From assembly GCA_050949525.1 (NCBI GenBank), contig JBMNFW010000001.1:65078-129077 (forward strand): a DNA stretch of 64,000 nt, in the 5' to 3' direction. How positions within the stretch are numbered: the first letter of the stretch is position 1; each line of letters starts with the position of its first letter. The notes under the pieces were generated by a model. The model saw nothing but the letters and a program-made list of their open reading frames with translations, was not told the DNA's origin and ran no database searches. This document shows positions 4,557 through 64,000 of the stretch, in pieces. A program made the translations under genes and the position numbers. The stretch comes from Patescibacteria group bacterium (GTDB lineage Bacteria > Patescibacteriota > Patescibacteriia > Patescibacteriales > UBA12465).

Positions 4557-5254
4557 ATAAATTAGCTCAAAACTTTTTATTAAAAACAGTTTCTCAGGGT
4601 TATGAGGAAATTGCTTTATCATTTAATGAGACTCGGCAAAAACCAATGAAGCCAATGGTGTATGAAATAGTTAATAATTTAAAGATATCTAATGGAGATC
4701 AGATTTTAGATTTAGGTTGTGGTAATGGCTGTTTTTTTGAAGTGTTAACAAATTTAAAAAAAGATATATCTTGGAAATATTTGGGTTTAGATAATAGTTC
4801 GAAGTTGATCAAATTAGCTCAAGATAAATATGGTTCTCATTTTGAGGTTTTTGATTTACTTGATTTAGCCTCTAGAAATGAGTTAAAATATAATTATATA
4901 TTTAGTTGGGCGGTTTGGCATCATTTTCCCGGAAAAAAATTAAGAAAAAAAATTTTAAATGATGTTTATAATCAACTTCAACTTAAAGGATATTTTATTT
5001 TTAGTGTTTGGAAATTAAGACAGAGAAAAAATTTTTTCTTTCTAAGTTTAAAAACTTATTTAGGGCAAGCTATTCGAGGACGTTTAGTAGATTGGGGTGA
5101 TCTCTTATTCCGATGGAAAGGTGGGGTGGATAGTCTTAGATATTATCATGCTTTTTCGCTTCGAGGACTTAAGAAATTAATTAAGGGGAGCGATTTTAAA
5201 CTAGAAAAAATTCTTGAAGATAATTTTAATTACTATTATATTTTAAAGAAATAA
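4553..5254 (+). CDS. class I SAM-dependent methyltransferase
   Basis: 233 aa; SAM-binding motif I LDLGCGNGCF. Substrate unknown. Confidence 0.6.
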   Translation: MNKLAQNFLLKTVSQGYEEIALSFNETRQKPMKPMVYEIVNNLKISNGDQILDLGCGNGCFFEVLTNLKKDISWKYLGLDNSSKLIKLAQDKYGSHFEVFDLLDLASRNELKYNYIFSWAVWHHFPGKKLRKKILNDVYNQLQLKGYFIFSVWKLRQRKNFFFLSLKTYLGQAIRGRLVDWGDLLFRWKGGVDSLRYYHAFSLRGLKKLIKGSDFKLEKILEDNFNYYYILKK

Positions 5255-5257
5255 TAT

Positions 5258-6661: not shown

Positions 6662-6666
6662 AAAAT

Positions 6667-7416
6667 ATGAAAAACAAAATTATTATTTTAGCGGCTGGGA
6701 AAGGAAAACGAATGATGTCAGATTTACCTAAGCCTCTTATTCCGGTAAATAATCGAGCTATGATTAAGTATTTACTTGATTCTATTATAGCTTCCAAAAT
6801 TGATTCTAAGCCGGTTGTAGTAGTGTCTCCGATTGGAGAAGAAATAATGAAAGAAAGTCTTAAGGAATATAATTTAAATTATGCTATACAAACTGAGGCT
6901 TTAGGAACTGGGCATGCCGTATCAGTTACAGAGAACTTAATTTCTGAAGATGTTGAAAATGTTTTAGTTCTTTATGGCGATCAACCTTTTATTAGCCAAA
7001 AATCAATGCAGAAAATTTTAGATATTCATCAATCAGAGCTTTCAATGTTGACAGTAAGCTTGGAAGATTTTAATGATTGGAGACAAGGATTCTTTCATTG
7101 GGGGAGAATTTTGAGGGGGGAAAAAGGAGAAATTAGGGAAATAGTTGAGTTTAAAGATGCTAGTGAAGAACAAAAAAAGATTACCGAACTTAATCCAGCT
7201 ATTTTTTGTTTTAATCGGAATTGGCTATTTGATAATATTAAAAATTTAAAGAATAATAATAATCAAAAAGAATATTATTTAACTGATTTAGTTAAAATAG
7301 CCTTTAATCAAGGGGTAAATATAGATAGTTGTCCAGTGGCTGCTTCTGAAGTTTTAGGGATTAATAGTCCAGAGGAGTTAGAGATAGTAGAAAAAATAAT
7401 CAAAAATGAAAAATAA
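6667..7416 (+). CDS. sugar-1-phosphate nucleotidyltransferase (GlmU N-terminal-like)
   Basis: 249 aa. N-terminal ILAAGKGKRM nucleotidyltransferase signature. Adjacent to the phosphohexomutase, so plausibly an NDP-sugar/UDP-GlcNAc route. Confidence 0.7.
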   Translation: MKNKIIILAAGKGKRMMSDLPKPLIPVNNRAMIKYLLDSIIASKIDSKPVVVVSPIGEEIMKESLKEYNLNYAIQTEALGTGHAVSVTENLISEDVENVLVLYGDQPFISQKSMQKILDIHQSELSMLTVSLEDFNDWRQGFFHWGRILRGEKGEIREIVEFKDASEEQKKITELNPAIFCFNRNWLFDNIKNLKNNNNQKEYYLTDLVKIAFNQGVNIDSCPVAASEVLGINSPEELEIVEKIIKNEK

Positions 7417-10700: not shown

Positions 10701-13700
10701 TTATGTTCTGGTTGTAAGTTATCGGATTCAGCTGGTATTTTTGATCGAGATAATGCTTGTAATTGTTTAGGAACTTATGGTAAATTTTGCGAGGTTAGTA
10801 ATATTTATCCTGAGGGAGCTTGCTTAGATTGTTCCGCTATTCAAAGTGAAATTAATTGTAAAGAGCATGGTAATTCTTGTTGTTGGGATAAGAAAAATGA
10901 ATCTTGTCGTGGTATAAAGTCTGATAGTATTCCTTGGGATGAAGAAGATGCTAATTGGGGTTATTGCCCTTATTATTCTTGTCGAGAGGATCAACCAAAT
11001 CTTTGTAATCTTTCTTCACCATCTAGTGATAGTAATGATAATTATCTCTATTCTTCTACTAGCTCTTGTGCCATAGCTTGTCAAAAAAATTGTAATAAGT
11101 ATTTAACTTTTGATCATTGTAAAAATACTGATAATTGTTGTTGGGATGAAGAATCTAATCTTTGTTTGGAGGGAGCTGCTTTTAGTGATGAGGCAAATCT
11201 AGGAAAGTGTAAATATTATCAATGTTCTAATCCTGGAAGTGATTCACCTTGTACAGTAACTGATCAATCTAGTGATGGTGATAATCCTAATTATTTAAAA
11301 GAAAATATTTGTACACTTCAATGTAAAAACCAATCTCTAGGTTTTGGTAATTATTGCGCTTCTATTACTCCTAATTATACTAATCTTAATCCAGTTTGTG
11401 ATTCTAACGTTTGTAATTTATTTTCTTGTTTAACTAGTGAAGGAGCGGTAGCTTCTAACTCTACTGATTGTGGAGTTTGTTGTTGTAATCCAAATAGCTC
11501 AAATGATCAATGTACACAGATTAGTAGCAGCTTAACTTGTTTACCAAATAAAGGTTTGTGTACTGGATCAAAACGTGGTTTATGTTGTGGTTGTAGTACT
11601 GATGCTAGCTGTGTTAATCCTGGTTTATCGCCTCTCTTTGTTGGTTGTGGTCTCGATACTTGTTGTCGAGCTCGACCTAAAATAGAAACAAATATTAATA
11701 AATTTGCTGAGCTGGATGTTTTGCCGGAGCATGAAGATCATAATGTTTGTCGAAATGCCATGATTGAAATAAATTTTGATCAAAGAATAGATATTAATAG
11801 TTTGAGTAATAATATATTATTATTAGAGGAAACCAGCGGTGCTTGTTCTCCCGGTACATATTTTATTGGTCAAAGTAATTTTAAAAAAGATACTATTTTA
11901 GCTCGAATTTTAAAACCTATTTTAAAAATTTTTAAGAAAGATGCTTTAGCTCAAATCGGGGGAATACCAATAGATCTGCCATTTTTACCGATATCTGTAT
12001 TGAATATGCCATCATCAGTTAAAAATTATTGCGCTGTTTTAGGTAGTGTTGATTTTGAGCATTTAAGTAATAATAAAACTCGAGTTTTCTTTAAACCCAA
12101 TAATCTTCTTAAGGCCGGAACTAAATATTTTGTCGTGGTAAAAGGAGATGTTAATTTAAATAGTCAAAGTGGAATTAAAAGTTTGCACGGAATTGGTATG
12201 AGAGGTTCTGGGTATTATAGAATTACTGCGCCTTCTACTTTTTCTGGTTGGAGATCTAATGTTTTATTTAATAATGTTCGATATCCAAATTCATATATCT
12301 GGAGATTTATTACTCAATCAGTAAATTCTCCAGGAGAAGGAATTTGTACAATTGATCATGTAGAAGTGTCTCCTGATTCTTATCTTTTTCAAACATTTGA
12401 AAATGATCTTAATGAGAATGATGAAGATTCTAACCATTCCTCTTTTGATTCTGTTAAAGATCGGGATAAAGTATATGTAGCCAAAGCTTATTCCTCTGAT
12501 CATCAAAGACTACAACCTACCACTGGATATAGTTGGACTTGGGATTGGAATATTGATAATCAAGATGTTTTAAATTTCTATGATGTATTAGGTGAGGAAA
12601 GTAGTATTACTGGTTTTAGTTTAGATGGTGATAAGCGATTAATTGGAGTTAAGGGTGGTGTAACTAATGGAGAAACTTGGGTTTCTGCTACTACCGTTTT
12701 GTCTTCTCCTTATACTACTGATGGAAATAATGTTTCTAAATCAGTTCCTGCTTATGTTATGAATTGTAAAAATCCTTGGCCAGCGTTTAATGGTGAGACT
12801 TGGTCTCCATGGAAAGACACTCCTCAAAGTGGTATAGCTGGATATAATCATGAATTTTATTATTGTCGGGATGCCGGTGAGGATGGTACCGCTGATGATT
12901 TACCAGCATTTTTAAGTGATTTAGCTATCGTTAAGGGTAATAGCTTAATTAAGGTTTGCAGTAATGCCCCTACTCAGATTTGTGAAAATAGTAATGATTG
13001 TTCTAATGGTGGAATATGTTTAAGTAGTTTTTTAAAGGAAATATATTTCTTTAAAGAAAGAATTCCTCATTTTATTAAAAATATTTCCGCTAGTGATAAT
13101 GGTATGGGGGGCAGTATAAAGCTTTCCTGGGAATCAGATAAAAGTTTAGTTCATCGGTATAAGATTTATTATAATCCAGTAGCTAGTAATAATAATCAAG
13201 AGAAAATAATAAATCCTGAAACTGAATGTACTGTAGGAGGTAGTAAATATACTTGTTCAATTGATATTAATAATTTAACTAATGGGCAACAATATGCTTT
13301 CCGAGTCACAGCTCTTAGTGAGAATCAGGCTGAGACTAATTTTTCTGCCACTGTTTTTGCCACTCCTACAGTTGGAGTCTTAGAGGCGGAGGGTCTCAAT
13401 ATACCAACTAATTTAGTTGCTCAGATTGAATCATATGATGAAAAAAAGGTTAAATTATCTTGGACTGCCCCAACTAATTATCAAGTAGCTAATTATAAAG
13501 TGTATCGCGGAACTTCTCAAGGTGTTTATGCTTCTTCTTTTTTAACTAATAGTACTGAAACTGAAATTATAGTTATTTTACCATCTGGATCTGGGACTAA
13601 GCATTATTTAGCAGTCAGTACTATTGGGGTTAATAGTGTAGAGAGTGATAAATCTAATATGGTGCTAGTTGATTTTGGCGCCTTACCATTATTACCATAA
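7728..13700 (+). CDS. giant (1990 aa) cysteine-rich extracellular protein with N-terminal VirB2/TrbC-like pilin hairpin, Cys-rich modules and two C-terminal fibronectin-III-like domains
   Basis: N-terminal signal/TM (LVFLIYFLLVSVFLLGKIALA). Then two hydrophobic helices, IAVKIINVSLSVLGIIAVIIVIYGGFVWMTA and GVIGLIIILAAWGIVTLVF, separated by the charged loop EGNEDKISKARGILKS; this is the topology of TrbC/VirB2-type pilins. ~1850 aa follow with about 115 Cys by manual count, in repeated 25-30 aa modules (e.g. CTPDNTDCNDGLVCNNNCICV, CSGGDVCTSNNPECGSSFFCDFEADCTC, CSDGNTCNDSSNTCNPHYGLSCDPDACICV). Ig-like stretches (ITGISPQGG...ITVYGYNF). Two FN3-like domains near the C-terminus (KLSWESD...YAFRVTALSEN; KLSWTAPTNYQVANYKVYRG). 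Confidence 0.85.
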   Translation: MISKKNKTRRLVFLIYFLLVSVFLLGKIALATSSPSVVDTTFGLDYVEGTNPEMSNEEGIKLGAKDPRTIAVKIINVSLSVLGIIAVIIVIYGGFVWMTAEGNEDKISKARGILKSGVIGLIIILAAWGIVTLVFNKLGVSTGVSTGDHSTSTNNNIVPPGGPGSNCGSYYGNQCTPDNTDCNDGLVCNNNCICVPDETGTPCSGGDVCTSNNPECGSSFFCDFEADCTCQLLGYSNLNEPCSDGNTCNDSSNTCNPHYGLSCDPDACICVGEPIITGISPQGGFCDNDINQACLNDTACDGGSCNISQANGALGNLITVYGYNFDHYDQDYSKVNLIKRDGEEEIIITAQVPSELNAACGNSWNNQQIVVAIPTSTALSVEDEIEIEVVTRLEKTDRSQDENGPLLESLLINNLERPGLCSVKKVGDDNTEGELEGQMNDELEYHGLNLINSKAYFGNSVSNILGLSPNNFSDNDIKGRARVPNLSTGKTSTFAKKEILPSNFMDFRKMAEAPQGPSISFFDPVEGSSGQYVTIYGSGFGSFKGMSAVYLVGDNQGSIEADYNFPPVCLQSVWSDDKILIKIPDNIDDGDYYLVLQIGTWNEIISSDTFKVSADIALGPSLCKISPSSGPHSTTLVNMWGEYFGTQARAVFSYQKFTDSVTPEIEGGADKIKVFVPAESISGPVKVERDNISGNSLNFLIGACLSDDDCSGSNTCCGANTVLAGSCVSDSNACNEGAPSNSLFKWSFDTGVADASPSFTGDEPYSCASYTYCPETPYVCPNSPGVCSKYLGGQSVLISGTCDDTCQSICPGSIYRSDLNRCVKDIGNCHLDKKIEYSLGEGLGTTTKIAVCKNYDINGTRKSFFEISVSTSCPNGWSMISPGRCVNVPNVYSEEYSYTCGACPSGLSCQNLYGNVELGICASGPLCSGDYSCINGQCQKEDLGDCQCCCDKDQNSTDADSYGNPACCTPLICDYKCGVSANEPTNNENYGLCSGCKLSDSAGIFDRDNACNCLGTYGKFCEVSNIYPEGACLDCSAIQSEINCKEHGNSCCWDKKNESCRGIKSDSIPWDEEDANWGYCPYYSCREDQPNLCNLSSPSSDSNDNYLYSSTSSCAIACQKNCNKYLTFDHCKNTDNCCWDEESNLCLEGAAFSDEANLGKCKYYQCSNPGSDSPCTVTDQSSDGDNPNYLKENICTLQCKNQSLGFGNYCASITPNYTNLNPVCDSNVCNLFSCLTSEGAVASNSTDCGVCCCNPNSSNDQCTQISSSLTCLPNKGLCTGSKRGLCCGCSTDASCVNPGLSPLFVGCGLDTCCRARPKIETNINKFAELDVLPEHEDHNVCRNAMIEINFDQRIDINSLSNNILLLEETSGACSPGTYFIGQSNFKKDTILARILKPILKIFKKDALAQIGGIPIDLPFLPISVLNMPSSVKNYCAVLGSVDFEHLSNNKTRVFFKPNNLLKAGTKYFVVVKGDVNLNSQSGIKSLHGIGMRGSGYYRITAPSTFSGWRSNVLFNNVRYPNSYIWRFITQSVNSPGEGICTIDHVEVSPDSYLFQTFENDLNENDEDSNHSSFDSVKDRDKVYVAKAYSSDHQRLQPTTGYSWTWDWNIDNQDVLNFYDVLGEESSITGFSLDGDKRLIGVKGGVTNGETWVSATTVLSSPYTTDGNNVSKSVPAYVMNCKNPWPAFNGETWSPWKDTPQSGIAGYNHEFYYCRDAGEDGTADDLPAFLSDLAIVKGNSLIKVCSNAPTQICENSNDCSNGGICLSSFLKEIYFFKERIPHFIKNISASDNGMGGSIKLSWESDKSLVHRYKIYYNPVASNNNQEKIINPETECTVGGSKYTCSIDINNLTNGQQYAFRVTALSENQAETNFSATVFATPTVGVLEAEGLNIPTNLVAQIESYDEKKVKLSWTAPTNYQVANYKVYRGTSQGVYASSFLTNSTETEIIVILPSGSGTKHYLAVSTIGVNSVESDKSNMVLVDFGALPLLP

Positions 13701-13734
13701 TTATTTTAGTGTATTAAAAATTAAAATAAAAAAA

Positions 13735-16700
13735 ATGAAGAAAAAAAATATTTTTATAAGAAGAGTTTTTTTAATAACTTTGTTTTTCGGTATTCTCTTT
13801 TTAATATCTACTCAAGTATCACGAGCTTTTTCTGGGGTGGGTAATTTGGGTAATCAGGAACAGGTTGCTTCTAATACAGGTAGTGGTAATTATCAGACTA
13901 ATCCCCCCATTCTTAGTTCTCAAGAATCTTTTCAATCGGGGGAATCTGACGCTATTGCGGTTAGAGTTATTCCTAATCCCAATCATCTCAGTGCTCAGAA
14001 ATGGTATAAATCTCAAGGATTTTCTGGTTCGCCCCAATCTTTGATAGTTGATGGTTATCAAGCAGTTCGAGATGGAAGAACAGTTTATGTTTCGGCTACT
14101 AATGTGGTGGGAAATAATATTTATACTAATATTTATTTAATTTCCTATGATCAAGAAGCTGATCATCAAACGGTAGATATTTTTGGTAAAATCTTAAGTA
14201 ATTGGAAATTTAATACTAATATTAATGCTAATGTTGGTTCTTGTGTTATTTCTAATCGAAGTTGTTACTCTGATAGTGATTGCTCTGAAGGTTATGTTTG
14301 TGGAAGTCTTGGTAATGCTCAAGCTAATAAATGTATTTTAAAAGAAGCTGATGAAGATTATACTAGTTTAGAAAGTTCTCCACGTTGTTTACTTGATTCT
14401 GATTGTCCAGGAAAATTATTTTGCACTAGTCTAAAATCCAGAATTATTAGAGACTTAGATCGTTTAGAAAAAATAATTCTTTTAAAAGAAAAGATTGAAC
14501 AGTATAATAATAAGAATGGGCGATATCCAACTTTATTATCCGGAACTTATTTACCTCATGTTGCTATTTCCACTTGGCCTTCTTGGCAAAGTTCTTTTTT
14601 AGGGCAAATTGGGGCTAGTGGAGTTGTTGATCCAATTAATAGTTTAGGATCTTGTGCTGATGAGAATAAAAAGTTTGATCTCAATACTTGTTGGCGAGAA
14701 GAAGGTAATTATTTTTTTACTCCTAATAATAATTATAATAATTTTACTTTGCCGCCATATAGCTATGTTATCGCTTATACTTCTAATCCTAATGGCACTA
14801 ATTATAATCTTTGTGCGGTAATGGAAACAGTTTTAGGTGGAGATAATTATACAATTTCTGGTGGACCCTTATCTGATTTAACTTGTTCTCTTGGTTCTGG
14901 TGTAGGAAATACTGGATTCGTTGGACATAATACTAATCAAGCTCCCTATGTTTCAGAATATATGTTAGAGGGAGAGGCCGGACAAGAATTTAATGGTTAT
15001 ATTAAAGCCATTGATCCTGAGGGGCATTCTATTACTTGGGGTACTAGTATCCATACAGCACCTATGTTAATAACTAATTTTAGTTCTTGGACACCAGCCA
15101 ATAAGCCTCAACTTATTAATACTAACAATCCATTACAAAAAAGATTATGGGCTGAAAAAGCTGGGTCTCCGGGGGTGTATAAAATTAAGGTTAATTTAGC
15201 TGATAATGTTGGTTCTTCTAGTTCTGAAGTTTTGAATATTGTTATTAATCCTTCTAATCCCCAGATAATAGCTGGTGATGTTAATTATGTTTTAGGTTCA
15301 GGTTCAATTCAGGGTGAGATGTTGATTAAGTCTAAAACTCCTCTATCCAATGGAGATGTTAAAATTTTTAGAAGCAATAATGAAAGTAATAAAGTTTCTT
15401 TAAATATTATAGAAAGTGGATCACCGCTTTTTTATATCCCCCCCTTTTTACCGCCCCTTGAAGGTGGATTACGGGCTAGTTTAACAAAATTATCTGATCA
15501 AGATTATTCTCTTAAAATTTTTGGAACATTAAATCATAATGTTTTTCCTGCCGGATCTTATCCCTATACCATTGAGGTTACTACTCCATATGGATCTAGT
15601 ACTAAACAGTTTTCTATTAATGTTGCAGCTGAGAATTTAGTTTTGGATTTAAGTAATTGTCCTACTATTGCTCCTCTTGGTTCATATTATGTGTGTCCAG
15701 TAAGTGTGTTTGGTTCCAATGATGGAGTTAATTTTTCTGTTGAATCAAGCTTACCTCGAGGACTTTCATATAATAGTTCGGAAAAGAAAATTAAAGGATA
15801 TATTTTAGATTCTTTAGATCAGTATCCTATCAATGTTTCAGCTCATAATAATTTTGGGGCTAATACTTCTAAAACATTTACTTTAAGTACTTTTAGTGAT
15901 TGTGAAAATAGTCTAGTTAAGCATGAAGGAGGTCCTTGGAATTCTTCAGGAAGTACCAGAAATAATGGAGGTTATTATAAGACAGTGTTGATTGGTGGAC
16001 AATGTTGGTTAAAGGAAAATTTAAATATTGGAACGATGCTTATGTTGGGTAGTGAGCCTCATAATAATACTACTATTGAAAAACATTGTTTTGATGATAA
16101 TGAAATTTATTGTCAGAAACTTGGTGGAGTATATCAATGGGATGAAGCAATGGATTATTTCCATAACAATACACTTCAAGGTATTTGTCCTAATGGTTGG
16201 AGAGTGCCCACAGATAATGATTGGTATGTTTTAGAAAATTATTTAAAAGATCCTGGACAAGGTTGTAATGCTAATAGAGTAATGGGGTCAGAAGAGTGTT
16301 ATTCAACTGGGTTTAAGATTACAAAGAATCAAAAGTGTTGTGCTAATAATGATGATAATAATTGTACTAATTGGCCAGGAAATAATTCCTCTGGTTTTTC
16401 GGCCGTTTGTGCTCCTAGTATGAGTAGTGCTTGGTGGGGTTTTGATAATTTAAATACTGAGTGGACTGGCTGGTTAACATCAAGTTTATATGATAATGAT
16501 AATGTGCTTACTAGACACGTGTTTCATAATAATGGCTTAATTCAACGACAAAAGAAACCTAGAAATAGTGGGTTTTATGCGGTTCGGTGTGTTAAGGATG
16601 TTAAAGAGTGTCACAATAATTCTGATTGCGCTTATTTAGGAGGTGGATATACATGTAATAGTTATAATCTCTGTTCTTCAAATGTTATTAGTGGTGGAAC

Positions 16701-17091
16701 AGTTTCACCTGTTATTGTCCCTGGTACTATACCAACTGGTTCTGATGATAATAATACTCCAGGTACTATAACACCACCAAATGCAAGTACTGAGTTAGAA
16801 GCAACCACTGATACTCCCATAGTTACACCAACTGGTTCTGATGATAATAATATTCCGGGTACTATAACACCACCAAATGTGAGTACTGAACTAGGGACAA
16901 CCATTAATAAACCTACTGGTTCCGGAGATAATGTTTCTCCTGATGATAGTACTATAGCTCCACCAAATATTCATACTGGAGCTGTTGGTATAATAGAGGG
17001 CGGTACTACTAACTCTGGTTCTGGTAGCAATACTTCTCCAGGGTTAAATACCGGAACATTATTTACTGGCGGAATGACAGGTAAGCCTTAG
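13735..17091 (+). CDS. large secreted Cys-containing protein with Fibrobacter-succinogenes-major-paralogous (FISUMP) domain and C-terminal Pro/Thr-rich tandem repeats
   Basis: Start placed at MKKKNIFIRRVFLITLFFGILFLISTQVSRA (signal peptide); tracked ORF begins 13669. FISUMP-like block GGYYKTVLIGGQCWLKENLNIG...CQKLGGVYQWDEAMDY...ICPNGWRVPTDNDWYVLENYL...GFYAVRCVKD. Tail of imperfect 28-32 aa repeats PTGSDDNNTPGTITPPNASTEL... Confidence 0.8.
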   Translation: MKKKNIFIRRVFLITLFFGILFLISTQVSRAFSGVGNLGNQEQVASNTGSGNYQTNPPILSSQESFQSGESDAIAVRVIPNPNHLSAQKWYKSQGFSGSPQSLIVDGYQAVRDGRTVYVSATNVVGNNIYTNIYLISYDQEADHQTVDIFGKILSNWKFNTNINANVGSCVISNRSCYSDSDCSEGYVCGSLGNAQANKCILKEADEDYTSLESSPRCLLDSDCPGKLFCTSLKSRIIRDLDRLEKIILLKEKIEQYNNKNGRYPTLLSGTYLPHVAISTWPSWQSSFLGQIGASGVVDPINSLGSCADENKKFDLNTCWREEGNYFFTPNNNYNNFTLPPYSYVIAYTSNPNGTNYNLCAVMETVLGGDNYTISGGPLSDLTCSLGSGVGNTGFVGHNTNQAPYVSEYMLEGEAGQEFNGYIKAIDPEGHSITWGTSIHTAPMLITNFSSWTPANKPQLINTNNPLQKRLWAEKAGSPGVYKIKVNLADNVGSSSSEVLNIVINPSNPQIIAGDVNYVLGSGSIQGEMLIKSKTPLSNGDVKIFRSNNESNKVSLNIIESGSPLFYIPPFLPPLEGGLRASLTKLSDQDYSLKIFGTLNHNVFPAGSYPYTIEVTTPYGSSTKQFSINVAAENLVLDLSNCPTIAPLGSYYVCPVSVFGSNDGVNFSVESSLPRGLSYNSSEKKIKGYILDSLDQYPINVSAHNNFGANTSKTFTLSTFSDCENSLVKHEGGPWNSSGSTRNNGGYYKTVLIGGQCWLKENLNIGTMLMLGSEPHNNTTIEKHCFDDNEIYCQKLGGVYQWDEAMDYFHNNTLQGICPNGWRVPTDNDWYVLENYLKDPGQGCNANRVMGSEECYSTGFKITKNQKCCANNDDNNCTNWPGNNSSGFSAVCAPSMSSAWWGFDNLNTEWTGWLTSSLYDNDNVLTRHVFHNNGLIQRQKKPRNSGFYAVRCVKDVKECHNNSDCAYLGGGYTCNSYNLCSSNVISGGTVSPVIVPGTIPTGSDDNNTPGTITPPNASTELEATTDTPIVTPTGSDDNNIPGTITPPNVSTELGTTINKPTGSGDNVSPDDSTIAPPNIHTGAVGIIEGGTTNSGSGSNTSPGLNTGTLFTGGMTGKP
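16732..17010 (+). repeat. in-frame imperfect tandem repeat (96-nt, 84-nt, then a degenerate unit) encoding a Pro/Thr/Gly-rich linker
   Basis: ccaactggttctgatgataataatactccaggtactataacaccaccaaatgcaagtactgag... recurs at 16828 with a few substitutions. A further degenerate copy is at 16912. This repeat explains the spurious antisense ORF 16662..16904. Confidence 0.7.
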
Positions 17092-41923: not shown

Positions 41924-42000
41924 TGGAGGTCCGAGTGGGATTCGAACCCACGAATAACAGTTTTGCAAACTGCAGTGTTAGACCGCTTCACCATCGGACC
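41924..42000 (-). tRNA. tRNA-Cys (anticodon GCA)
   Basis: Reverse complement GGTCCGATGGTGAAGCGGTCTAACACTGCAGTTTGCAAAACTGTTATTCGTGGGTTCGAATCCCACTCGGACCTCCA folds as a cloverleaf. 7-bp acceptor GGTCCGA/TCGGACC. T-arm GTGGG-TTCGAAT-CCCAC. Anticodon stem GCAGT/ACTGT with loop TTGCAAA (U33, GCA, A37). Encoded CCA. Confidence 0.8.
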
Positions 42001-58598: not shown

Positions 58599-60797
58599 AT
58601 GAAATTAATAATTGTAGAATCACCAACTAAAGCCAAGACTATTGCTAAATTTTTAGGTTCAGCTTATCGTCTGGAGTCTTCTTTTGGTCATATTAGAGAT
58701 TTACCAGCTAAAGAATTGGGGATCGATATTGAGAATAATTTTACACCAAAATATATTATTCCTGATAAATCCAAAAAGAAAGTAGCCGAATTAAAAAAAT
58801 TAGCTCAATCGGCTGATTTGGTAGTTTTAGCTTCGGATGATGACCGAGAGGGAGAGGCTATTGCTTGGCATTTAGTTCAGGCTTTATCCTTAAAAGAAGG
58901 TCAGTATCAGCGAATTGTTTTTCATGAGATTACTTCGGAAGCTATTTCAGGAGCCCTAAAAGAGCCACGAGGGATTAATTTAAATTTAGTAGATGCTCAA
59001 CAAGCTCGACGTGTTTTAGATCGTTTAGTGGGGTATAAATTATCTCCTTTTCTTTGGAAAAAGGTTTTAAGAGGTTTATCAGCTGGAAGAGTACAAAGTG
59101 TGGCTGTTCGTCTAGTAGTAGAAAAAGAACGAGAAATACAAGCTTTTATTCCACAAGAGTATTGGGATTTAAACGCTTATTTTAAGAAAGATAAACTTGA
59201 TTTTTCGGCTAAGTTATTAAAAATAGATCAAAAAAGTTTAGATAAGTTTTATTTTAAAAATGAATCTGATATATCTAAAATAGTACAAAATCTTAAGGGG
59301 GCCTCCTTTTCAGTGGCAAAAATTGAGGCTAAAGAGGGGAGTAAAAATCCTTTACCACCTTTTATTACTTCAACTTTACAACAAGCGGCTAATAATAGGT
59401 TAGGGTTTAGCGCTAAACAAACTATGATGATAGCTCAGAAGTTGTATGAAAAGGGATTTATTACTTATATGAGAACTGATTCTTTTAATTTATCTGATAA
59501 ATTTAGACAAGAAGCTAAGCAATATTTAAGGGATAATTTAGGTGATAAATATTTAAGTTCTGGCAAAGGTGTTTTTAAAAATAAGAATAAAAAGGCCCAG
59601 GAGGCTCATGAGGCTATTAGGCCCACTTCAGCTTTGTTAACGGCGGAAAATTTAGGATCTAAATTAGATCGGAATCAATCTAGGCTTTATCAGCTTATTT
59701 GGCAAAGAGCTATAGCTTCACAGATGTCACCAGCTATTTTAGACACAGTTGCGATTGATATTTCGGCGGGTCAATATCTGTTTCGAGCTAATGGACAACG
59801 AGTTAAGTTTAAAGGTTATCTAGAGGTTTATCCTGAAAAAGTTAGTGAAAATGATTTACCCAATTTAGAGTTAAAAGAGTTGTTAACTTTAAAAAAGTTA
59901 GAACCTGATCAACATTTTACTCAAGCCCCAGCTCGTTACTCTGATGCTAGTTTAGTAAAAGAGTTGGAGAAACATGGTATTGGTCGGCCTTCTACTTATG
60001 CCCCAACTATCGCTACTATTATTGATAGAAATTATGTTCAACGTGATGATAAGAAACGACTTTTTCCAACAGATATAGCTTATATAGTTAATGATGTTTT
60101 AGTTGAACATTTTCCGAATATTGTTAATTATAAGTTTACTGCTGAAATGGAGAATGATTTAGATCGCATTTCTTTAGGAGAAAAAAAATGGCAACCAGTT
60201 GTTAATGATTTTTGGCAGGATTTTTCTAAAAATTTAGAAAAAAAAGAAAAAGAGTTAGATAAAGAAAGCTTAGTTCCGGCTGAAGAATCTGATGAGATTT
60301 GTGAATTATGTGGGGCTAAGATGTTAGTTAAAATTGGTCGTTATGGAAAGTTTTTATCTTGTAGCGATTATCCTAAGTGTAAAAGCATTAAATCATTAAA
60401 ATCTAAAGATGTTGAATCAGAGGATAATCCTGAGTTATTAAATTTGAAGGAAAAATTACAAGGAGAAACTTGTGATTTATGTGGGGCTGAGATGATAGTT
60501 CGTTCTGGTCGTTTTGGTTATTTTTTAGGTTGTAGTCAATATCCTAAATGTAAGGGTATTAAGAATATTGATCCAAAAGGGGAAAAAGAAATTGAAGTTG
60601 ATTGTCCTCTTTGTGGACAAGGTAAAATAGTTAAAAAATTTAGTCGACGAGGACCTTTCTATGCTTGTAGCGCTTATCCTGATTGTAAGAATGCGTATAA
60701 TTCTCGACCAACAGGAGAAAAGTGCTCTAAGTGTGGATCTTTGATGATTGAGTCAAAGGATGGATCTCGTTGTTCAAATAAAGAATGTTTAAAATAA
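58599..60797 (+). CDS. topA: DNA topoisomerase I
   Basis: 732 aa. TOPRIM N-terminus (LIIVESPTKAKTI, DDDREGE). Catalytic Tyr region (GFITYMRTDS). Three C-terminal C4 zinc ribbons (CELCGAKM...CSDYPKCK and two similar). Confidence 0.95.
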   Translation: MKLIIVESPTKAKTIAKFLGSAYRLESSFGHIRDLPAKELGIDIENNFTPKYIIPDKSKKKVAELKKLAQSADLVVLASDDDREGEAIAWHLVQALSLKEGQYQRIVFHEITSEAISGALKEPRGINLNLVDAQQARRVLDRLVGYKLSPFLWKKVLRGLSAGRVQSVAVRLVVEKEREIQAFIPQEYWDLNAYFKKDKLDFSAKLLKIDQKSLDKFYFKNESDISKIVQNLKGASFSVAKIEAKEGSKNPLPPFITSTLQQAANNRLGFSAKQTMMIAQKLYEKGFITYMRTDSFNLSDKFRQEAKQYLRDNLGDKYLSSGKGVFKNKNKKAQEAHEAIRPTSALLTAENLGSKLDRNQSRLYQLIWQRAIASQMSPAILDTVAIDISAGQYLFRANGQRVKFKGYLEVYPEKVSENDLPNLELKELLTLKKLEPDQHFTQAPARYSDASLVKELEKHGIGRPSTYAPTIATIIDRNYVQRDDKKRLFPTDIAYIVNDVLVEHFPNIVNYKFTAEMENDLDRISLGEKKWQPVVNDFWQDFSKNLEKKEKELDKESLVPAEESDEICELCGAKMLVKIGRYGKFLSCSDYPKCKSIKSLKSKDVESEDNPELLNLKEKLQGETCDLCGAEMIVRSGRFGYFLGCSQYPKCKGIKNIDPKGEKEIEVDCPLCGQGKIVKKFSRRGPFYACSAYPDCKNAYNSRPTGEKCSKCGSLMIESKDGSRCSNKECLK

Positions 60798-60807
60798 TAT
60801 TAATTTT

Positions 60808-61806
60808 ATGAAAAAAGATATTGTGGTGGGAGTATCATCTTTCGCCCCTCTAGTTAGTGGATCAGGTTCAAGTTTTAAAGGCTTTGAAGTTGATTTATGG
60901 GAAATGATTGCTAAAAAGCTAAATCTTTCCTTTAGTTATAAAAAATACAATTTTACTAATCTTTTAGAAGCGGTTAAAGATAAAGAAGTGGATATTGCTT
61001 TTGCGGGTATTACTAGAACTAAGGAAAGGGAAGAAAAATTTAGCTTTTCTTACTTTACTTTAAGAACCGGTTTAGCTATTTTGATTAATGAAGATAATAA
61101 AATAAGTTTTTTAAAGAGTTTTAAAGATATGATCTTAAAAAATTTAAAAAAAATTCTTAATATTATTTTATTTTTCTTTGTTTTAATTGTTATTGTTAGT
61201 AATATTATTTGGTTTTTAGAGCGAGATTTAGATTCTTTAAATATTAGATCGTCTTATGGTCAGGGTATTATTGATTCTTTATGGTGGACTACTGGTGTAA
61301 TGAGTGGAGCAGGAGGAACATATCCTGAATCGGGGCTTGGTAAATTTTTAGGATTTTTTTCAATTTTTGTTGGTTTAGTAATTTTTTCTATTATTGTAGC
61401 TCAAGTAACCTCTTTTATTACTCTTAGTAAAATGAAGCATAGTATTAGCGATCCTAAAGATTTAGCTGGTAAAAAAGTTGGAACTAAAAGAGGCACCACT
61501 TCAGAAAAGGAATTAGAAAAATTAGGTGCCAAAATTGTTTTAGAGGATAATATTGAAGATGTTTTTGATAAATTAGCTAATAAAGAAATTGATGCTGTGG
61601 TTTTTGATGAACCAGTTATTCGTAATTTTGTTAAACACAATGATGAGTCCAATTTGATTATTGCTAGTGAAACTTTTAATAAGCAAACTTATGGTTTTGC
61701 TTTTCCTGAGGGTAGTGCTTTACGAGAGAAGTTTAATCGGGAGTTATTAGGTTTATTTGAATCAGGTGAGTACGATGCTTTATTAGCTAAATGGTTTGGT
61801 GTTTAG
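60808..61806 (+). CDS. glutamate-receptor-like ligand-gated channel: periplasmic substrate-binding (SBP family 3) domain split by an M1-pore loop-M2 channel module (GluR0-type architecture)
   Basis: 332 aa. S1 half (DIAFAGITRTKEREEKFSFSYF). Then hydrophobic M1 (ILNIILFFFVLIVIVSNIIWFL), a pore-helix/loop DSLWWTTGVMSGAGGTYPES, M2 (FLGFFSIFVGLVIFSIIVAQVTSFI), then S2 half (KDLAGKKVGTKRGTTSEKEL...IDAVVFDEPVI...). Confidence 0.65.
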   Translation: MKKDIVVGVSSFAPLVSGSGSSFKGFEVDLWEMIAKKLNLSFSYKKYNFTNLLEAVKDKEVDIAFAGITRTKEREEKFSFSYFTLRTGLAILINEDNKISFLKSFKDMILKNLKKILNIILFFFVLIVIVSNIIWFLERDLDSLNIRSSYGQGIIDSLWWTTGVMSGAGGTYPESGLGKFLGFFSIFVGLVIFSIIVAQVTSFITLSKMKHSISDPKDLAGKKVGTKRGTTSEKELEKLGAKIVLEDNIEDVFDKLANKEIDAVVFDEPVIRNFVKHNDESNLIIASETFNKQTYGFAFPEGSALREKFNRELLGLFESGEYDALLAKWFGV

Positions 61807-62801
61807 TTAAAATAATCTAATTTCATAGCCATTTTAACTTTTTTCATAGTGGCCTGAGCTCGAGCTTGGGCCTTTTTTGTACCTTCTTGAAGTATTTTAT
61901 GGACCAATTCAGGTCGATCCTGATAATATTTTCTTTTTTCTTGAATAGGTTTTAAGAAGTTGATAATAATTTGACTTAGTTCCTTTTTACATTGAAGACA
62001 ACCTCGTGATCCAAGACGACATTCTGATTCTATTTCCTTTAAATGACTTGATTTAAATAATTGGTGGTAATAGAAAGCGGTACAAATTTTAGGATTACCA
62101 GGATCATTTAAATGTATTTTTTTTGTATCAGTTAAAGCTTGTTTAACCTTTTTTTCAATTATCTCTGGACTATCAGATAGGTAAATAGCATTACCTAAAC
62201 TTTTTCCCATTTTAGTTTTTCCATCTAATCCCTTAATTCGAGGATTAGGGCTTAATAAGGTTTCGGGGGATTTTAAAGTATTGCCATAAATATTATTAAA
62301 TTTTTTAACAATTTCTCTAGTTTGTTCCATCATTGGTAATTGATCTTCGCCAACTGGAACTAGATCAGCTTCAAAGATGGTAATATCAGCTGCTTGACTA
62401 ATGGGGTAGCCCAAAAATCCATAAGTAACTCCATTTTTAAAAATTTCTTTTTTTTGGTTTATTTCTTCTTTAACGGTTGGGTTTCTTTGTAAACGATTGA
62501 TATTAACTAAATTAGAATAAAAAACAGTTAATTCGGCAATTTCTGGAATTAAGGATTGAATAAAAATGGTGGAAACTTTAGGATCTAGACCAATAGCTAA
62601 ATTATCTAAAGCCACTTCTAAAACATTTTTTCTAACTTTTTCTGGTTGAGAAAAATTATCGGTTAAAGCTTGAACATCGGCAATCATGATATAGTTTTGA
62701 TATTCTTCTTGTAATTTAATTCGGTTTAACATGGAACCAAAAAGGTGTCCAATATGTAATGGTCCAGTTGGTCGATCTCCAGTTAGAACTATTTTTTTCA
62801 T
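61803..62801 (-). CDS. trpS: tryptophan--tRNA ligase
   Basis: 332 aa. Class I HIGH (TGPLHIGH) and KMSKS (KMGKS) motifs. TrpS-specific GDRPTG start. Confidence 0.93.
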   Translation of the reverse strand: MKKIVLTGDRPTGPLHIGHLFGSMLNRIKLQEEYQNYIMIADVQALTDNFSQPEKVRKNVLEVALDNLAIGLDPKVSTIFIQSLIPEIAELTVFYSNLVNINRLQRNPTVKEEINQKKEIFKNGVTYGFLGYPISQAADITIFEADLVPVGEDQLPMMEQTREIVKKFNNIYGNTLKSPETLLSPNPRIKGLDGKTKMGKSLGNAIYLSDSPEIIEKKVKQALTDTKKIHLNDPGNPKICTAFYYHQLFKSSHLKEIESECRLGSRGCLQCKKELSQIIINFLKPIQEKRKYYQDRPELVHKILQEGTKKAQARAQATMKKVKMAMKLDYFN

Positions 62802-62806
62802 AAATT

Positions 62807-63121
62807 TTATTTTTTCAATTTTTTCTTGGAAGTGTCTTGGTTTGATTTTTTATTTTTTTTCTTATCTTTAAAATATTCTAAAGCTTTTTCGATTAAATTA
62901 ACTAAGAGAAGCAAGTGAGAACTACTACTTTTAAAACGGTTTTTTATGAGATCAATTAATTCATTGGTTTTATTAACGGCTTCCTCGATCCCATCACCAA
63001 TATTTTTTAATCGACGTAAATTTTGAATTAGATAGAAGAGAAAACGAGCGGTGAAAAAAGTTAGTATAATAACCGCTAGGGCTATTGATAGATTTAAGAT
63101 ATCTTTACTAGTGTTAAACAT
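62807..63121 (-). CDS. small membrane protein (hypothetical) with Lys-rich C-terminus
   Basis: 104 aa, one TM (LSIALAVIILTFFTARFLFYLI), tail KKKNKKSNQDTSKKKLKK. Confidence 0.4.
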   Translation of the reverse strand: MFNTSKDILNLSIALAVIILTFFTARFLFYLIQNLRRLKNIGDGIEEAVNKTNELIDLIKNRFKSSSSHLLLLVNLIEKALEYFKDKKKNKKSNQDTSKKKLKK

Positions 63122-63138: not shown

Positions 63139-64000
63139 TTAAAAATCTCTAATTTGAGCTGAAAATTTATTTTCTAAATGTTTAATTAATTCGGCTTGAA
63201 TTTTATCTACTTCTTCAGTGCTTAAGGTTTTTTCTTCGGAGGCATAGCTAAGATGAAAAGCTAAACTTTTTTTATTTTCTTCTAAGTTATAGACATCAAA
63301 AAGCTCTAGTTCTTTAAGCAGTGGGCTAAAATTCTTTATTTCGCGATTAATATCATTATATAATATTTTTTGATCAATCACAAAGGCTAGGTCTCTTTTT
63401 AGGCTTGGAAATTTGGCCGGAGCTTGATATTCAGCTTTAGGGGTTTCATTTAAGATATTGAGTAAATTTTTTAAACTTATTTCAGCTAAACTGACATCTT
63501 TTTTTAATGAGTTTTTTTTGATAGCTTCCGGACTTAATTTGGCAATAAATCCAATTTCTCGATTGTTTAACATAATGAGAGCGTTTTCATCTTTTTTAGC
63601 CCAAGGAATTTCTAGGTCACTAGGTAAAAACTCTAAATTTAAATTATTTTGTATTTCATTTAAAAAGCTAGTAATAATACTTTTTAGATTAGAAAAAGAG
63701 TCTCCTTGGTAATTAGCTAGGGCTAAACCTAGTTTTTTTTCTTGATAAGGTAGGCTTTCATTTTGTTTTTTATCTTTCGGTATTTCTCCAGCTACATTTA
63801 GAAAAATATTTCCAATTTCGAAAAAAGATAAGTTTTCTTTTTTAGCTTGGTTACTTTGAATATTAGATACTAGACCAGCAATTAAGTCGGTTCTTAAAAA
63901 TTCAAAGTGGCTTGAGCTGGGGTTTAGTAATCTTAAGTGATTATTAGTATCAATATTGAGTTTAGTTAATTGTTCTTGGCCTAAGAAGGAATAATTATAT
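63139..64000 (-). CDS. pheT: phenylalanine--tRNA ligase beta subunit, C-terminal part (N-terminal part lies beyond the window end)
   Basis: Minus-strand frame is open from 63139 to the window edge. I checked it codon by codon from 63574 to 64000 and found no stop. FPSLKRDLAFVID matches the PheT FPxxxRDLA motif. The C-terminus FDVYNLEENKKSLAFHLSYASEEKTLSTEEVDKIQAELIKHLENKF is the FDX-ACB anticodon-binding domain. Confidence 0.8.
   Translation of the reverse strand, partial: YNYSFLGQEQLTKLNIDTNNHLRLLNPSSSHFEFLRTDLIAGLVSNIQSNQAKKENLSFFEIGNIFLNVAGEIPKDKKQNESLPYQEKKLGLALANYQGDSFSNLKSIITSFLNEIQNNLNLEFLPSDLEIPWAKKDENALIMLNNREIGFIAKLSPEAIKKNSLKKDVSLAEISLKNLLNILNETPKAEYQAPAKFPSLKRDLAFVIDQKILYNDINREIKNFSPLLKELELFDVYNLEENKKSLAFHLSYASEEKTLSTEEVDKIQAELIKHLENKFSAQIRDF

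What the first reader, a model, noticed from the sequence alone, without database searches (positions are those of the whole stretch)
60808..61806. Compact prokaryotic ionotropic-glutamate-receptor-like channel (SBP lobe 1 - M1 - pore - M2 - SBP lobe 2)
The 332-aa protein has a family-3 solute-binding fold interrupted after lobe 1 by two TM helices that flank a pore-helix-like DSLWW followed by TTGVMSGAGG. The binding domain resumes afterwards. This is the GluR0/iGluR domain order. The filter region is not the K+-channel TVGYG but a Gly-rich SGAGG, so ion selectivity may differ from GluR0. A ligand-gated channel is an unexpected sensory device in a reduced genome. It sits directly after topA and overlaps trpS convergently by 4 nt, so it is tightly packed core-genome context rather than an island.
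Basis: partly seen in the sequence, partly recalled or inferred. Interest (0 to 1): 0.6.

Follow-up and report, generated by a model that had tools for sequence, protein, structure and literature searches.

The report
Signal-peptide-less GluR0-type channel, probably flipped
This gene from a small candidate-phyla-radiation (CPR) bacterial genome encodes a real bacterial relative of glutamate-receptor ion channels, but it has lost the potassium filter and, like its whole clade, lacks an export signal and has reversed membrane charge bias, so its amino-acid sensor probably faces the cell interior.

Summary
ORF 60808..61806 (+) encodes a 332-aa protein in which an amino-acid-binding clamshell (SBP_bac_3, 96 bits) is interrupted by M1, a pore helix and M2 (Lig_chan, 43.9 bits, above the 30.8-bit gathering score). 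The structure model is confident (pLDDT 86.5). It matches glutamine-binding protein for the clamshell and AMPA-receptor LBD-TMD for the whole chain. This is a GluR0-family channel subunit.

- **Filter.** Relatives carry the canonical TVGYGD. The window's clade has SG[AV]GG[TSF]YP, two residues shorter, so potassium selectivity is probably lost.
- **Orientation.** The protein and all 53 members of its clade (mostly Patescibacteria) start at the first strand of the mature binding-protein fold, so no signal peptide is possible. Their lysine/arginine bias around M1 and M2 is opposite to that of 43 signal-peptide-bearing relatives (+3.7 versus -3.4), and this replicates in an independent set. The best reading is a KcsA-like orientation with a cytoplasmic ligand-binding domain, meaning a channel gated by an intracellular amino acid.

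Orientation is predicted, not shown. Ger et al. 2010 mentioned this possibility for four sequences and did not test it. I rate it a new variant of a known kind.

The parts
60808..61806 (+). Complete gene for the 332-aa GluR0-type channel subunit (stop TAG 61804-61806)
   Evidence: ORF list. Pfam SBP_bac_3 plus Lig_chan above their gathering scores. A 99%-identical protein, P0001, is present in other public assemblies.
60808..61101 (+). S1 segment of the ligand-binding domain (aa 1-98). It begins at the first beta strand, and no signal peptide is possible
   Evidence: Aligns to mature GlnBP residues 3-98. An in-frame stop lies at 60790-60792, and topA ends at 60797. It contains invariant R74 (61027-61029), the alpha-carboxylate-binding arginine.
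61108..61140 (+). Lysine-rich amphipathic pre-M1 helix (aa 101-111, within FLKSFKDMILKNLKK)
   Evidence: AF2 helix 101-111. There are 5 K/R in the 15 residues before M1, against a mean of 1.0 in signal-peptide-bearing relatives.
61144..61221 (+). M1 transmembrane helix (aa 113-138), ending in the conserved W135 and E138
   Evidence: AF2 helix 113-138. Invariant or near-invariant columns in alignment A1.
61222..61254 (+). M1-to-pore-helix loop ('turret', aa 139-149), net acidic
   Evidence: The sequence is RDLDSLNIRSS. This loop has fewer K/R than in signal-peptide-bearing relatives.
61255..61305 (+). Re-entrant pore helix (aa 150-166), including DSLWW, the aromatic cuff equivalent to KcsA W67/W68
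   Evidence: AF2 helix 150-166. Alignments to Kv2.1 and KcsA.
61300..61323 (+). Shortened selectivity-filter segment SGAGGTYP (aa 165-172), two residues shorter than STVGYGDxxP of relatives
   Evidence: Family alignments. HMMER places a 2-residue gap against Kv2.1 TVGYGDIYP. The sister sequence P0011 has STVGGFAP.
61333..61434 (+). M2 inner helix (aa 176-209) with near-invariant G178 and G189 (the latter at the K+-channel gating-hinge position), followed by the K-rich stop-transfer-like SKMKH
   Evidence: AF2 helix 176-209. Conservation. Post-M2 K/R count is 3, against a mean of 0.5 in signal-peptide-bearing relatives.
61444..61803 (+). S2 segment of the ligand-binding domain (aa 213-332), with invariant D267 (61606-61608) and Y295
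   Evidence: Aligns to GlnBP 101-222. D267 corresponds to GlnBP D157, the alpha-amino contact, and is invariant in 96 sequences.
61851..61872 (+). Terminator-like hairpin (9-bp stem, 6 G-C pairs, then a T run) 45 nt after the channel stop, inside the 3' end of the convergent tRNA synthetase gene. It is a candidate end of the rpoB...topA-channel transcription unit
   Evidence: Pattern scan. This is a consensus match only, not evidence of function.

Best explanation
The gene encodes one subunit of a presumably tetrameric P-loop channel of the GluR0/iGluR family. A bilobed amino-acid-binding clamshell (S1 plus S2) is wired to a 2-TM pore module through the pre-M1 and M2-S2 linkers.

Shown by computation:
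- The domain order and the fold.
- Intact alpha-amino-acid contact residues (R74, T69, T230, D267, Y295).
- A re-entrant pore helix.
- A filter two residues shorter than the TVGYGD of relatives.

Inferred:
- The protein has no signal peptide, and it has a signal-anchor-like K-rich flank before M1, an acidic M1-P loop and a K-rich flank after M2. It therefore inserts N-in/C-in, like KcsA. The pore loop enters from outside and the clamshell sits in the cytoplasm next to the M2 bundle-crossing gate.
- Binding of a cytoplasmic amino acid closes the clamshell, pulls on the M2 linker and opens the gate. The mechanics are the same as in iGluRs, with the compartments swapped. Functionally this is analogous to the RCK- or cNMP-domain-gated K+ channels MthK and MloK1.
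- K227 is conserved in this clade at the position of GlnBP K115, which hints at Gln, Glu or a similar ligand.
- The K+ signature has lost the Thr and the Tyr and is shortened, as in NaK and CNG channels. The pore is therefore probably a poorly selective cation pathway rather than a K+-selective one.
- A plausible role is to couple cation flux or membrane potential to the intracellular amino-acid pool in an organism that depends on imported amino acids.
For: **Family and fold**
- Pfam Lig_chan at 43.9 bits (gathering score 30.8) and SBP_bac_3 at 96 bits.
- PDB sequence hits to GlnBP, the ligand-binding cores of Nostoc and Synechocystis GluR0, and GluA/GluD chains including their membrane part.
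- AF2 pLDDT 86.5 with M1, P helix and M2.
- Foldseek: GlnBP at TM 0.9 and rmsd 1.8 A; AMPA-receptor LBD-TMD chains at query TM-score up to 0.69.

**Ligand site**
- R74, D267 and Y295 are invariant in 96 distinct sequences.

**Filter**
- TVGYGD is spread through the clade, with shortened or degenerate versions arising several times. The sister sequence has STVGGFAP.
- The pore module alone hits Kv2.1 (5e-6) ahead of GluA2 (7e-5), with a 2-residue gap in the signature.

**Orientation**
- An in-frame stop lies 16 nt upstream of the start codon, and the start aligns to residue 3 of mature GlnBP.
- All Patescibacteria-type loci have a stop just upstream, whereas proteobacterial, cyanobacterial and Desulfobacterales relatives carry classical signal peptides.
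- K+R on the LBD-side flanks minus K+R on the pore-loop side is +3.7 (query +5) in 53 no-signal-peptide sequences and -3.4 in 43 signal-peptide sequences. The ranges touch only at -1.
- This replicates in 130 independent cluster representatives, +2.6 versus -3.3.
- The differences sit in several separate columns on both sides of both helices, and they persist at 28-38% identity.
- The same genome uses ordinary signal and lipoprotein peptides on other proteins.
- GluR0 itself, which has a signal peptide, was shown by PhoA fusions to have its binding domain outside (PMC13099474).

**Maintenance**
- Synteny and intact length are conserved in eight related genomes.
Against: - Orientation rests on the positive-inside rule and the absence of a signal peptide. 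No experiment or dedicated topology predictor was available.
- All no-signal-peptide sequences fall on one side of a single tree split. The contrast is therefore effectively one evolutionary event, and the p-values are not phylogenetically corrected.
- Long N-terminal domains can occasionally be exported without a cleavable signal, as with E. coli ProW.
- SBP_bac_3 domains are typically extracytoplasmic.
- Tetramer formation, conduction, selectivity and ligand identity are all untested.
- The Gly-rich short filter could be non-conducting.
Confidence: 0.6

Rival explanations
1. It is a conventional GluR0-type receptor. The binding domain faces outward, and the ~112-residue N-terminal S1 segment is translocated without a cleavable signal peptide, with M1 acting as a reverse signal-anchor. 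The channel then senses an external amino acid, for example one released by a host cell.
For: Every characterised family member (GluR0 and eukaryotic iGluRs) has an external binding domain (PMC6385376). SBP_bac_3 domains are normally extracytoplasmic. CPR bacteria live attached to hosts and scavenge amino acids, so an outward sensor would make biological sense (inference).
Against: - There is no signal peptide in any of the 53 clade members, although the same genome uses classical ones.
- Five lysines lie directly before M1, and there are 20 K+R in the N-terminal 115 residues. These would oppose N-tail translocation.
- The charge pattern is the mirror image of that in signal-peptide-bearing relatives.
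- P0012 carries a further hydrophilic, K/R-rich N-terminal extension.
Confidence: 0.25
2. The pore is degenerate and no longer conducts. The protein would be a membrane-tethered amino-acid sensor or an accessory subunit, with the two helices serving for anchoring and oligomerisation.
For: The K+ signature is destroyed and shortened. Ion_trans_2 falls below its gathering score in this protein, at 16.5 against 22.5 bits. Filters have degenerated repeatedly in the clade.
Against: - The shortened motif x-G/S-x-G-G-x-Y-P is itself conserved across orthologues only 50-70% identical.
- The pore-helix WW cuff, E138, Y150 and the G189 hinge are retained.
- Lig_chan scores above its gathering threshold.
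- Short filters conduct in NaK and CNG channels (established knowledge).
Confidence: 0.12
3. It is an ordinary membrane-anchored solute-binding protein of an ABC transporter.
For: The best NCBIfam hits are to GlnH and Arg/Lys/Orn binding proteins.
Against: - All those NCBIfam hits are far below their cut-offs (136 against 303 bits for GlnH) and come in two pieces.
- The 115-residue insert matches Lig_chan and Kv/GluA pores and folds as M1, P helix and M2.
- There is no lipobox or signal peptide.
- No ABC permease or ATPase genes are adjacent.
Confidence: 0.01

Closest known systems
GluR0 (Synechocystis slr1257) and the Nostoc punctiforme GluR0 homologue
   Same: It has the same S1-M1-P-M2-S2 order, with no amino-terminal domain and no M4. 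The clamshell is of the same type, with Arg/Asp/Thr alpha-amino-acid contacts. Distant members of the window's own clade keep the same TVGYGD filter.
   Different: GluR0 has a signal peptide and an experimentally external binding domain (PMC13099474). This protein has none, and its flanking charges are reversed. Its filter is two residues shorter and lacks the Thr and the Tyr.
Ger et al. 2010 'Group 2' prokaryotic iGluRs (non-K+ pore), and their four unexplained signal-peptide-less sequences (PMC2950845)
   Same: These are prokaryotic S1-M1-P-M2-S2 proteins with a pore that is not the K+ signature. That paper listed 'oppositely oriented' as one of three possible reasons for a missing signal peptide.
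   Different: The signal-peptide-bearing non-K+ relatives found here have TLATQAExMPRxW pores and YTAQL motifs that resemble eukaryotic SYTANLAAF. The window's filter derives independently from TVGYGD inside the signal-peptide-less clade. The clade-wide charge reversal and the CPR distribution were not described in any paper the searches returned.
2-TM K+ channels gated by cytoplasmic ligand-binding domains (KcsA pore; MthK with an RCK domain; MloK1 with a cyclic-nucleotide domain)
   Same: The predicted orientation is N-in/C-in with the pore loop entering from outside. The pore helix has the WW cuff, YP follows the filter, and a Gly hinge sits in the inner helix. The ligand sensor lies on the cytoplasmic side next to the bundle-crossing gate (inference).
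   Different: The sensor is a split periplasmic-binding-protein-type clamshell that brackets the pore, not a C-terminal RCK or cNMP domain. The K+ signature is absent, and Ion_trans_2 is below its gathering score.
NaK and cyclic-nucleotide-gated channel filters
   Same: The filter is shortened or altered relative to TVGYG. In those channels this gives non-selective cation conduction (established knowledge; a resemblance only).
   Different: The sequence differs (SGAGG, against TVGDG in NaK and TIGE in CNG channels). No functional data exist for this protein.
Eukaryotic AMPA-type iGluRs (GluA1-4)
   Same: The whole-chain fold matches LBD-TMD structures. Sequence alignment runs through the pore (NSLWF against DSLWW) and M3. 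A pre-M1 helix is present.
   Different: It has no NTD, M4 or CTD and no SYTANLAAF motif (IIVAQVTSF, 2 of 9 identical). Its predicted orientation is the opposite.

Membership tests
iGluR / GluR0 superfamily (Pfam Lig_chan PF00060 with a split SBP-type ligand-binding domain) | Domain order S1 - M1 - re-entrant P loop - M2(M3) - S2 in one polypeptide | tested here: met
   Split SBP_bac_3 match, with Lig_chan at aa 122-224. GlnBP aligns as residues 3-98 and 101-222 around the insert. AF2 helices 113-138, 150-166 and 176-209.
iGluR / GluR0 superfamily | Lig_chan profile score above Pfam's gathering threshold | tested here: met
   43.9 bits against 30.8.
iGluR / GluR0 superfamily | Bilobed clamshell with a conserved Arg (alpha-carboxylate), Asp/Glu (alpha-amino) and Thr/Ser contacts | tested here: met
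   R74, D267 and Y295 are invariant, and T/S69 and T/S230 are conserved, in 96 sequences. The LBD superposes on Gln-bound GlnBP at TM 0.9 and rmsd 1.8 A.
iGluR / GluR0 superfamily | Ligand-binding domain outside the cell (signal peptide; pore loop entering from the cytoplasm) | tested here: not met
   No signal peptide is possible. The flanking K/R bias is +5, against a mean of -3.4 in signal-peptide-bearing relatives. This is a sequence-based prediction. Orientation was not measured.
iGluR / GluR0 superfamily | Tetrameric assembly and amino-acid-gated ion conduction | not testable with these tools
   Only a monomer could be modelled. No functional data exist.
GluR0 sensu stricto / Ger et al. 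Group 1 (glutamate-gated K+ channel) | K+ selectivity signature T-V-G-Y-G in the P loop | tested here: not met
   The query has SGAGGTYP, two residues shorter. Relatives P0015-P0022, L009, L012 and others have TVGYGD.
Eukaryotic iGluRs | SYTANLAAF motif in M3, an M4 helix and an amino-terminal domain | tested here: not met
   The M2 motif is IIVAQVTSF. The protein ends after S2 at aa 332 and starts at S1.
2-TM K+ channels (Pfam Ion_trans_2 PF07885) | Ion_trans_2 above its gathering score, and a TxGYG filter | tested here: not met
   16.5 bits against 22.5, and the signature is absent. Relatives in the clade do pass, according to the precomputed Pfam annotations.
2-TM K+ channels | N-in/C-in orientation with the pore loop entering from outside | tested here: inconclusive
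   This orientation is predicted from the missing signal peptide and the positive-inside pattern. It was not measured.
ABC-transporter amino-acid binding proteins (GlnH, ArtJ and similar) | Uninterrupted SBP with a signal peptide or lipobox, scoring above the NCBIfam cut-off | tested here: not met
   GlnH scores 136 bits against a cut-off of 303, in two stretches. There is no signal peptide. A 115-residue channel module is inserted.

The most novel reading that the evidence does not exclude
The signal-peptide-less, mostly CPR clade is a natural 'un-inverted' glutamate-receptor-type channel, in which an SBP clamshell in the cytoplasm gates a pore in native K+-channel orientation. It may also preserve the state that preceded the famous inversion of the iGluR pore. 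On that reading, iGluRs arose when a cytoplasmic clamshell-gated K+ channel acquired a signal peptide and swapped its flanking charges, rather than by insertion of an already inverted pore into a periplasmic binding protein. The evidence does not exclude this. Rooting with plain binding proteins was unresolved, and TVGYGD, the presumed ancestral filter, is widespread in this clade.
Probability: 0.15. Interest if true: 0.85.

Novelty: new variant of a known kind. Interest (0 to 1): 0.62.

Why it matters
Textbook accounts say iGluRs arose by inserting an inverted K+ channel pore into a periplasmic binding protein. How and when the inversion happened is unknown. This work points to a deep, well-populated bacterial clade in which the same architecture appears to sit the other way round. 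That gives directly testable candidates: small, single-gene, 330-aa proteins suitable for topology mapping, reconstitution and cryo-EM. If the prediction holds, it would show that orientation in this superfamily is evolutionarily labile. It would also add an intracellular amino-acid-gated cation channel to bacterial physiology, in organisms (CPR/Patescibacteria) whose membrane biology is almost unexplored. The repeated decay of the K+ filter within the clade is a natural experiment on how non-selective iGluR-like pores evolve from K+ pores.

Tried and rejected
1. **Rooting the family.** I used plain SBP_bac_3 proteins as an outgroup (LBD columns only, NJ, 100 bootstraps) to decide whether the signal-peptide-less state is ancestral or derived. 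It was unresolved, with under 20% support for monophyly of either group. Channels separate from binding proteins in 84% of replicates.
2. **Conserved cysteine pairs as a compartment marker.** Neither group has any, so this was uninformative.
3. **Genomic context as a functional clue.** The neighbours are housekeeping genes (pth, dprA, topA, trpS, pheT), conserved only in the immediate lineage. No transport or amino-acid-metabolism partner was found.
4. **Upstream alternative start or missing signal peptide through mis-annotation.** This is excluded by the in-frame stop at 60790-60792 and by topA ending at 60797.
5. **Negative-bias outliers among 'no signal peptide' cluster representatives (P0135, P0185, P0174).** Their N-termini look truncated inside or just after a signal peptide, so I treated them as gene-call artefacts.
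6. **Literature.** Searches for GluR0 with Patescibacteria, and for candidate phyla radiation with glutamate receptor, found nothing. Only Ger et al. 2010 mention missing signal peptides.
7. **Ordinary ABC binding protein or lipid-anchored SBP.** Rejected.
8. **Not possible with these tools.** Tetramer modelling, a dedicated topology predictor (DeepTMHMM, TOPCONS), access to model coordinates for pocket or electrostatics analysis, and retrieval of full-length Synechocystis GluR0 as a calibrator.
Full report
**1. The observation**

ORF 60808..61806 (+) encodes a 332-aa protein. Pfam finds three matches:
- SBP_bac_3, E=1.8e-27, 96 bits, covering aa 6-331 as a split match.
- Lig_chan, E=2.7e-11, 43.9 bits against a gathering score of 30.8, at aa 122-224.
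- Ion_trans, 31.6 bits.

E. coli glutamine-binding protein (GlnBP) aligns in two blocks: query 2-97 to GlnBP 3-98, and query 213-331 to GlnBP 101-222. About 115 residues are therefore inserted at the position where iGluRs carry their pore. The same search also hits the Nostoc and Synechocystis GluR0 ligand-binding cores, and GluA/GluD chains through their membrane part.

An AlphaFold2 model built on 23 homologues is confident (pLDDT 86.5). It shows a pre-M1 helix (101-111), M1 (113-138), a pore helix (150-166) and M2 (176-209). Foldseek matches the clamshell to Gln-bound GlnBP (target TM 0.9, rmsd 1.8 A) and the whole chain to AMPA-receptor LBD-TMD structures (query TM up to 0.69).

topA ends 10 nt upstream, and a class-I Trp/Tyr tRNA synthetase gene converges with a 4-nt overlap.

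**2. The ligand site**

I mapped the GlnBP pocket onto the family. R74 (GlnBP R75), D267 (D157) and Y295 (Y185) are invariant in 96 distinct sequences. T/S69 and T/S230 are conserved. The domain is therefore a working alpha-amino-acid binder. K227 (GlnBP K115) is conserved in the window's immediate clade, a weak hint of a Gln- or Glu-like ligand. The ligand cannot be named from sequence.

**3. The pore**

In the family alignment, many relatives carry the canonical K+ signature TVGYGD or TVGFGD. The window's clade has SG[AV]GG[TSF]YP, two residues shorter.

A neighbour-joining tree puts TVGYGD all over the clade, so it is most simply ancestral. Degenerate filters (TDSFGD, TNSGFSSE, LGLDGALFVY and the window type) arise at least four times. 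P0011, sister to the window's clade, has the intermediate STVGGFAP.

The pore module alone hits Kv2.1 (5e-6) slightly better than GluA2 (7e-5), and HMMER places a 2-residue gap inside the signature. KcsA aligns at 8e-4. The following are retained: the WW cuff of the pore helix, the YP after the filter, E138, Y150, G178 and the hinge-position G189. The Thr hydroxyl and the Tyr of the signature are lost. By analogy with NaK and CNG channels (established knowledge), I infer that K+ selectivity is lost and a less selective cation pore remains. This is not shown.

**4. No signal peptide, and reversed charges**

The start codon is preceded by an in-frame stop at 60790-60792 and by the end of topA. 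Residue 2 aligns with residue 3 of mature, signal-cleaved GlnBP.

A scan of one genome per species found 277 genomes with relatives, and 80 loci were fetched. Re-extracting the stop-to-stop frames shows a clean dichotomy:
- Patescibacteria-type loci have a stop codon just upstream of the first strand. So do a Flavobacteriaceae locus (L053) and MAGs labelled Bdellovibrionales or Gammaproteobacteria; the Sphaerochaetaceae relative P0013 likewise starts at the first strand with no signal peptide.
- Hyphomicrobiales, cyanobacterial, Desulfobacterales, Armatimonadota and Acidimicrobiia relatives carry classical signal peptides.

I then counted K+R in the 15 residues before M1 plus the 15 after M2, and subtracted K+R in the M1-P loop plus the filter-M2 loop.

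| Data set | No signal peptide | Signal peptide | Mann-Whitney p |
|---|---|---|---|
| Genome loci plus first homologue set | +3.66 mean, range -1 to +7, n=53 (query +5) | -3.42 mean, range -6 to -1, n=43 | 2e-17 |
| 50%-identity cluster representatives from the exhaustive profile search | +2.6 mean, n=25 | -3.3 mean, n=105 | 3e-12 |

In the second set, the three most negative of the four non-positive outliers in the no-signal-peptide group look N-terminally truncated; the fourth, P0057 (dKR 0), was not examined.

The differences lie in several separate columns on both sides of both helices, and they persist at 28-38% pairwise identity. In the signal-peptide group the pattern is that of an exported domain followed by a stop-transfer helix (LLFSxx | M1 | ERRHP...). 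In this clade it is that of an N-in signal-anchor (KNLKK | M1 | ERDLD...), followed by a stop-transfer M2 (...| SKMKH).

The same window encodes proteins with an ordinary signal peptide (ORF 7728) and a lipoprotein signal ending in LSAC (ORF 41416), so the organism uses normal export signals.

GluR0, which has a signal peptide, was shown by PhoA fusions to have its binding domain outside, opposite to KcsA (PMC13099474).

One caveat matters here. A single tree split separates all no-signal-peptide sequences from all signal-peptide sequences. This is effectively one evolutionary event, and the p-values are not phylogenetically corrected.

**5. Mechanism proposed**

The protein most likely inserts N-in/C-in like a K+ channel, with the pore loop entering from outside and the clamshell in the cytoplasm beside the M2 bundle crossing. 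Closure of the clamshell on a cytoplasmic amino acid would pull the M2-S2 linker and open the gate. These are the iGluR mechanics with the compartments exchanged. Functionally the arrangement resembles K+ channels gated by cytoplasmic RCK or cyclic-nucleotide domains.

- **Shown:** architecture, fold, intact ligand site, shortened filter, absence of a signal peptide, and charge reversal.
- **Inferred:** orientation, tetramer formation, gating, selectivity and physiological role.

**6. Context and maintenance**

The order rpoC-pth-dprA-topA-channel-trpS is conserved in eight related genomes. The channel is 52-60% identical between them, while topA is 67-72% and trpS 70-78% identical. The gene is therefore vertically inherited and maintained, and it evolves faster than its housekeeping neighbours. 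More distant clade members sit in other contexts.

No promoter-like site lies in the 10-nt gap after topA. A terminator-like hairpin lies 45 nt downstream, inside the synthetase gene. Co-transcription with the upstream genes is plausible but unproven.

**7. Comparison with what is known**

Prokaryotic iGluRs are well known: GluR0, and the 22 channels of Ger et al. 2010 with K+-type 'Group 1' and non-K+ 'Group 2' pores. That paper noted four sequences without signal peptides and offered pseudogene, alternative insertion or opposite orientation as explanations, without testing any (PMC2950845). Reviews and engineering papers treat the insertion of an inverted K+ pore into a binding protein as the key step in iGluR origin (PMC6385376). 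Searches for GluR0 with Patescibacteria, or candidate phyla radiation with glutamate receptor, returned nothing.

The window protein is therefore a member of a known superfamily by architecture and profile score. It fails two features of characterised members, the external ligand-binding domain with its signal peptide and the K+ signature. It belongs to a large clade whose consistent signal-peptide loss and charge reversal have not been described in any paper the searches returned. I rate it a new variant of a known kind.

**8. Verdict**

The 'sensory device facing outward' reading is probably wrong, and 'unexpected in a reduced genome' is wrong, because the clade is common in CPR lineages.

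My confidence in each claim:
- GluR0-family channel subunit: about 0.9.
- Cytoplasmic binding domain: about 0.65.
- Lost K+ selectivity: about 0.6.

Interest is 0.62. The family is known, but the predicted flipped orientation bears directly on the origin of the iGluR pore inversion and is cheaply testable.

Noticed in passing
P0071, P0076, P0081, P0109 (cluster representatives); loci L076:~4900-7002 and L079 (Acidimicrobiales MAGs): Some signal-peptide-bearing relatives are 600-720 aa long. They carry a full OpuAC (glycine-betaine-type) binding domain N-terminal to the GluR0-like unit (OpuAC E=4e-53 in P0071), with a TVGYGD filter. This is a two-tier extracellular architecture reminiscent of NTD plus LBD in eukaryotic iGluRs.
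   Followed up: partly
L001-L005, L008 (record titles): These MAGs are titled 'uncultured Gammaproteobacteria bacterium'. They nevertheless share rpoC-pth-dprA-topA-channel-trpS synteny with the window and with L006/L007, which are titled Patescibacteria, at 67-83% protein identity. The window itself is ~31% G+C. The Gammaproteobacteria labels look wrong.
   Followed up: partly
window 61851-61872 (+): A strong terminator-like hairpin (9-bp stem, 6 G-C pairs, T run) for the + strand lies inside the coding 3' end of the convergent tRNA synthetase gene, 45 nt after the channel stop codon.
   Followed up: no
window 62807-63121 (-): A 104-aa ORF with an N-terminal hydrophobic helix and a lysine-rich tail has no Pfam match, yet it is conserved (42-54% identity) at the same position in L001-L005, L007 and L008. 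The next ORF (63139-63573, -) matches only the FDX-ACB domain, the C-terminal domain of PheT.
   Followed up: partly
P0040, P0059, P0134, P0156, P0176, P0183 (cluster representatives): Very long proteins (1,229-2,362 aa) match the profile in 5-16 separate stretches. They look like tandem arrays of SBP_bac_3-type domains.
   Followed up: no
window 1-64000: GC skew is positive in every 2-kb bin, and all but four ORFs of at least 120 aa are on the + strand. This suggests a single replichore with strong gene-strand bias. The window carries secD/F-like genes, an F-type ATP synthase-like operon (about 35.0-41.4 kb), dnaK/dnaJ/grpE-like, groEL-like, ftsA/ftsZ-like and rpoB/rpoC genes, but only one tRNA (Cys, 41924-42000, -). 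Gene identities outside 57-64 kb were judged from N-terminal sequences only.
   Followed up: no
window 7728-17091 (+): Two very large adjacent ORFs (1,990 and 1,140 aa) each have an N-terminal signal or anchor sequence. They are probably surface proteins and were not analysed further.
   Followed up: no
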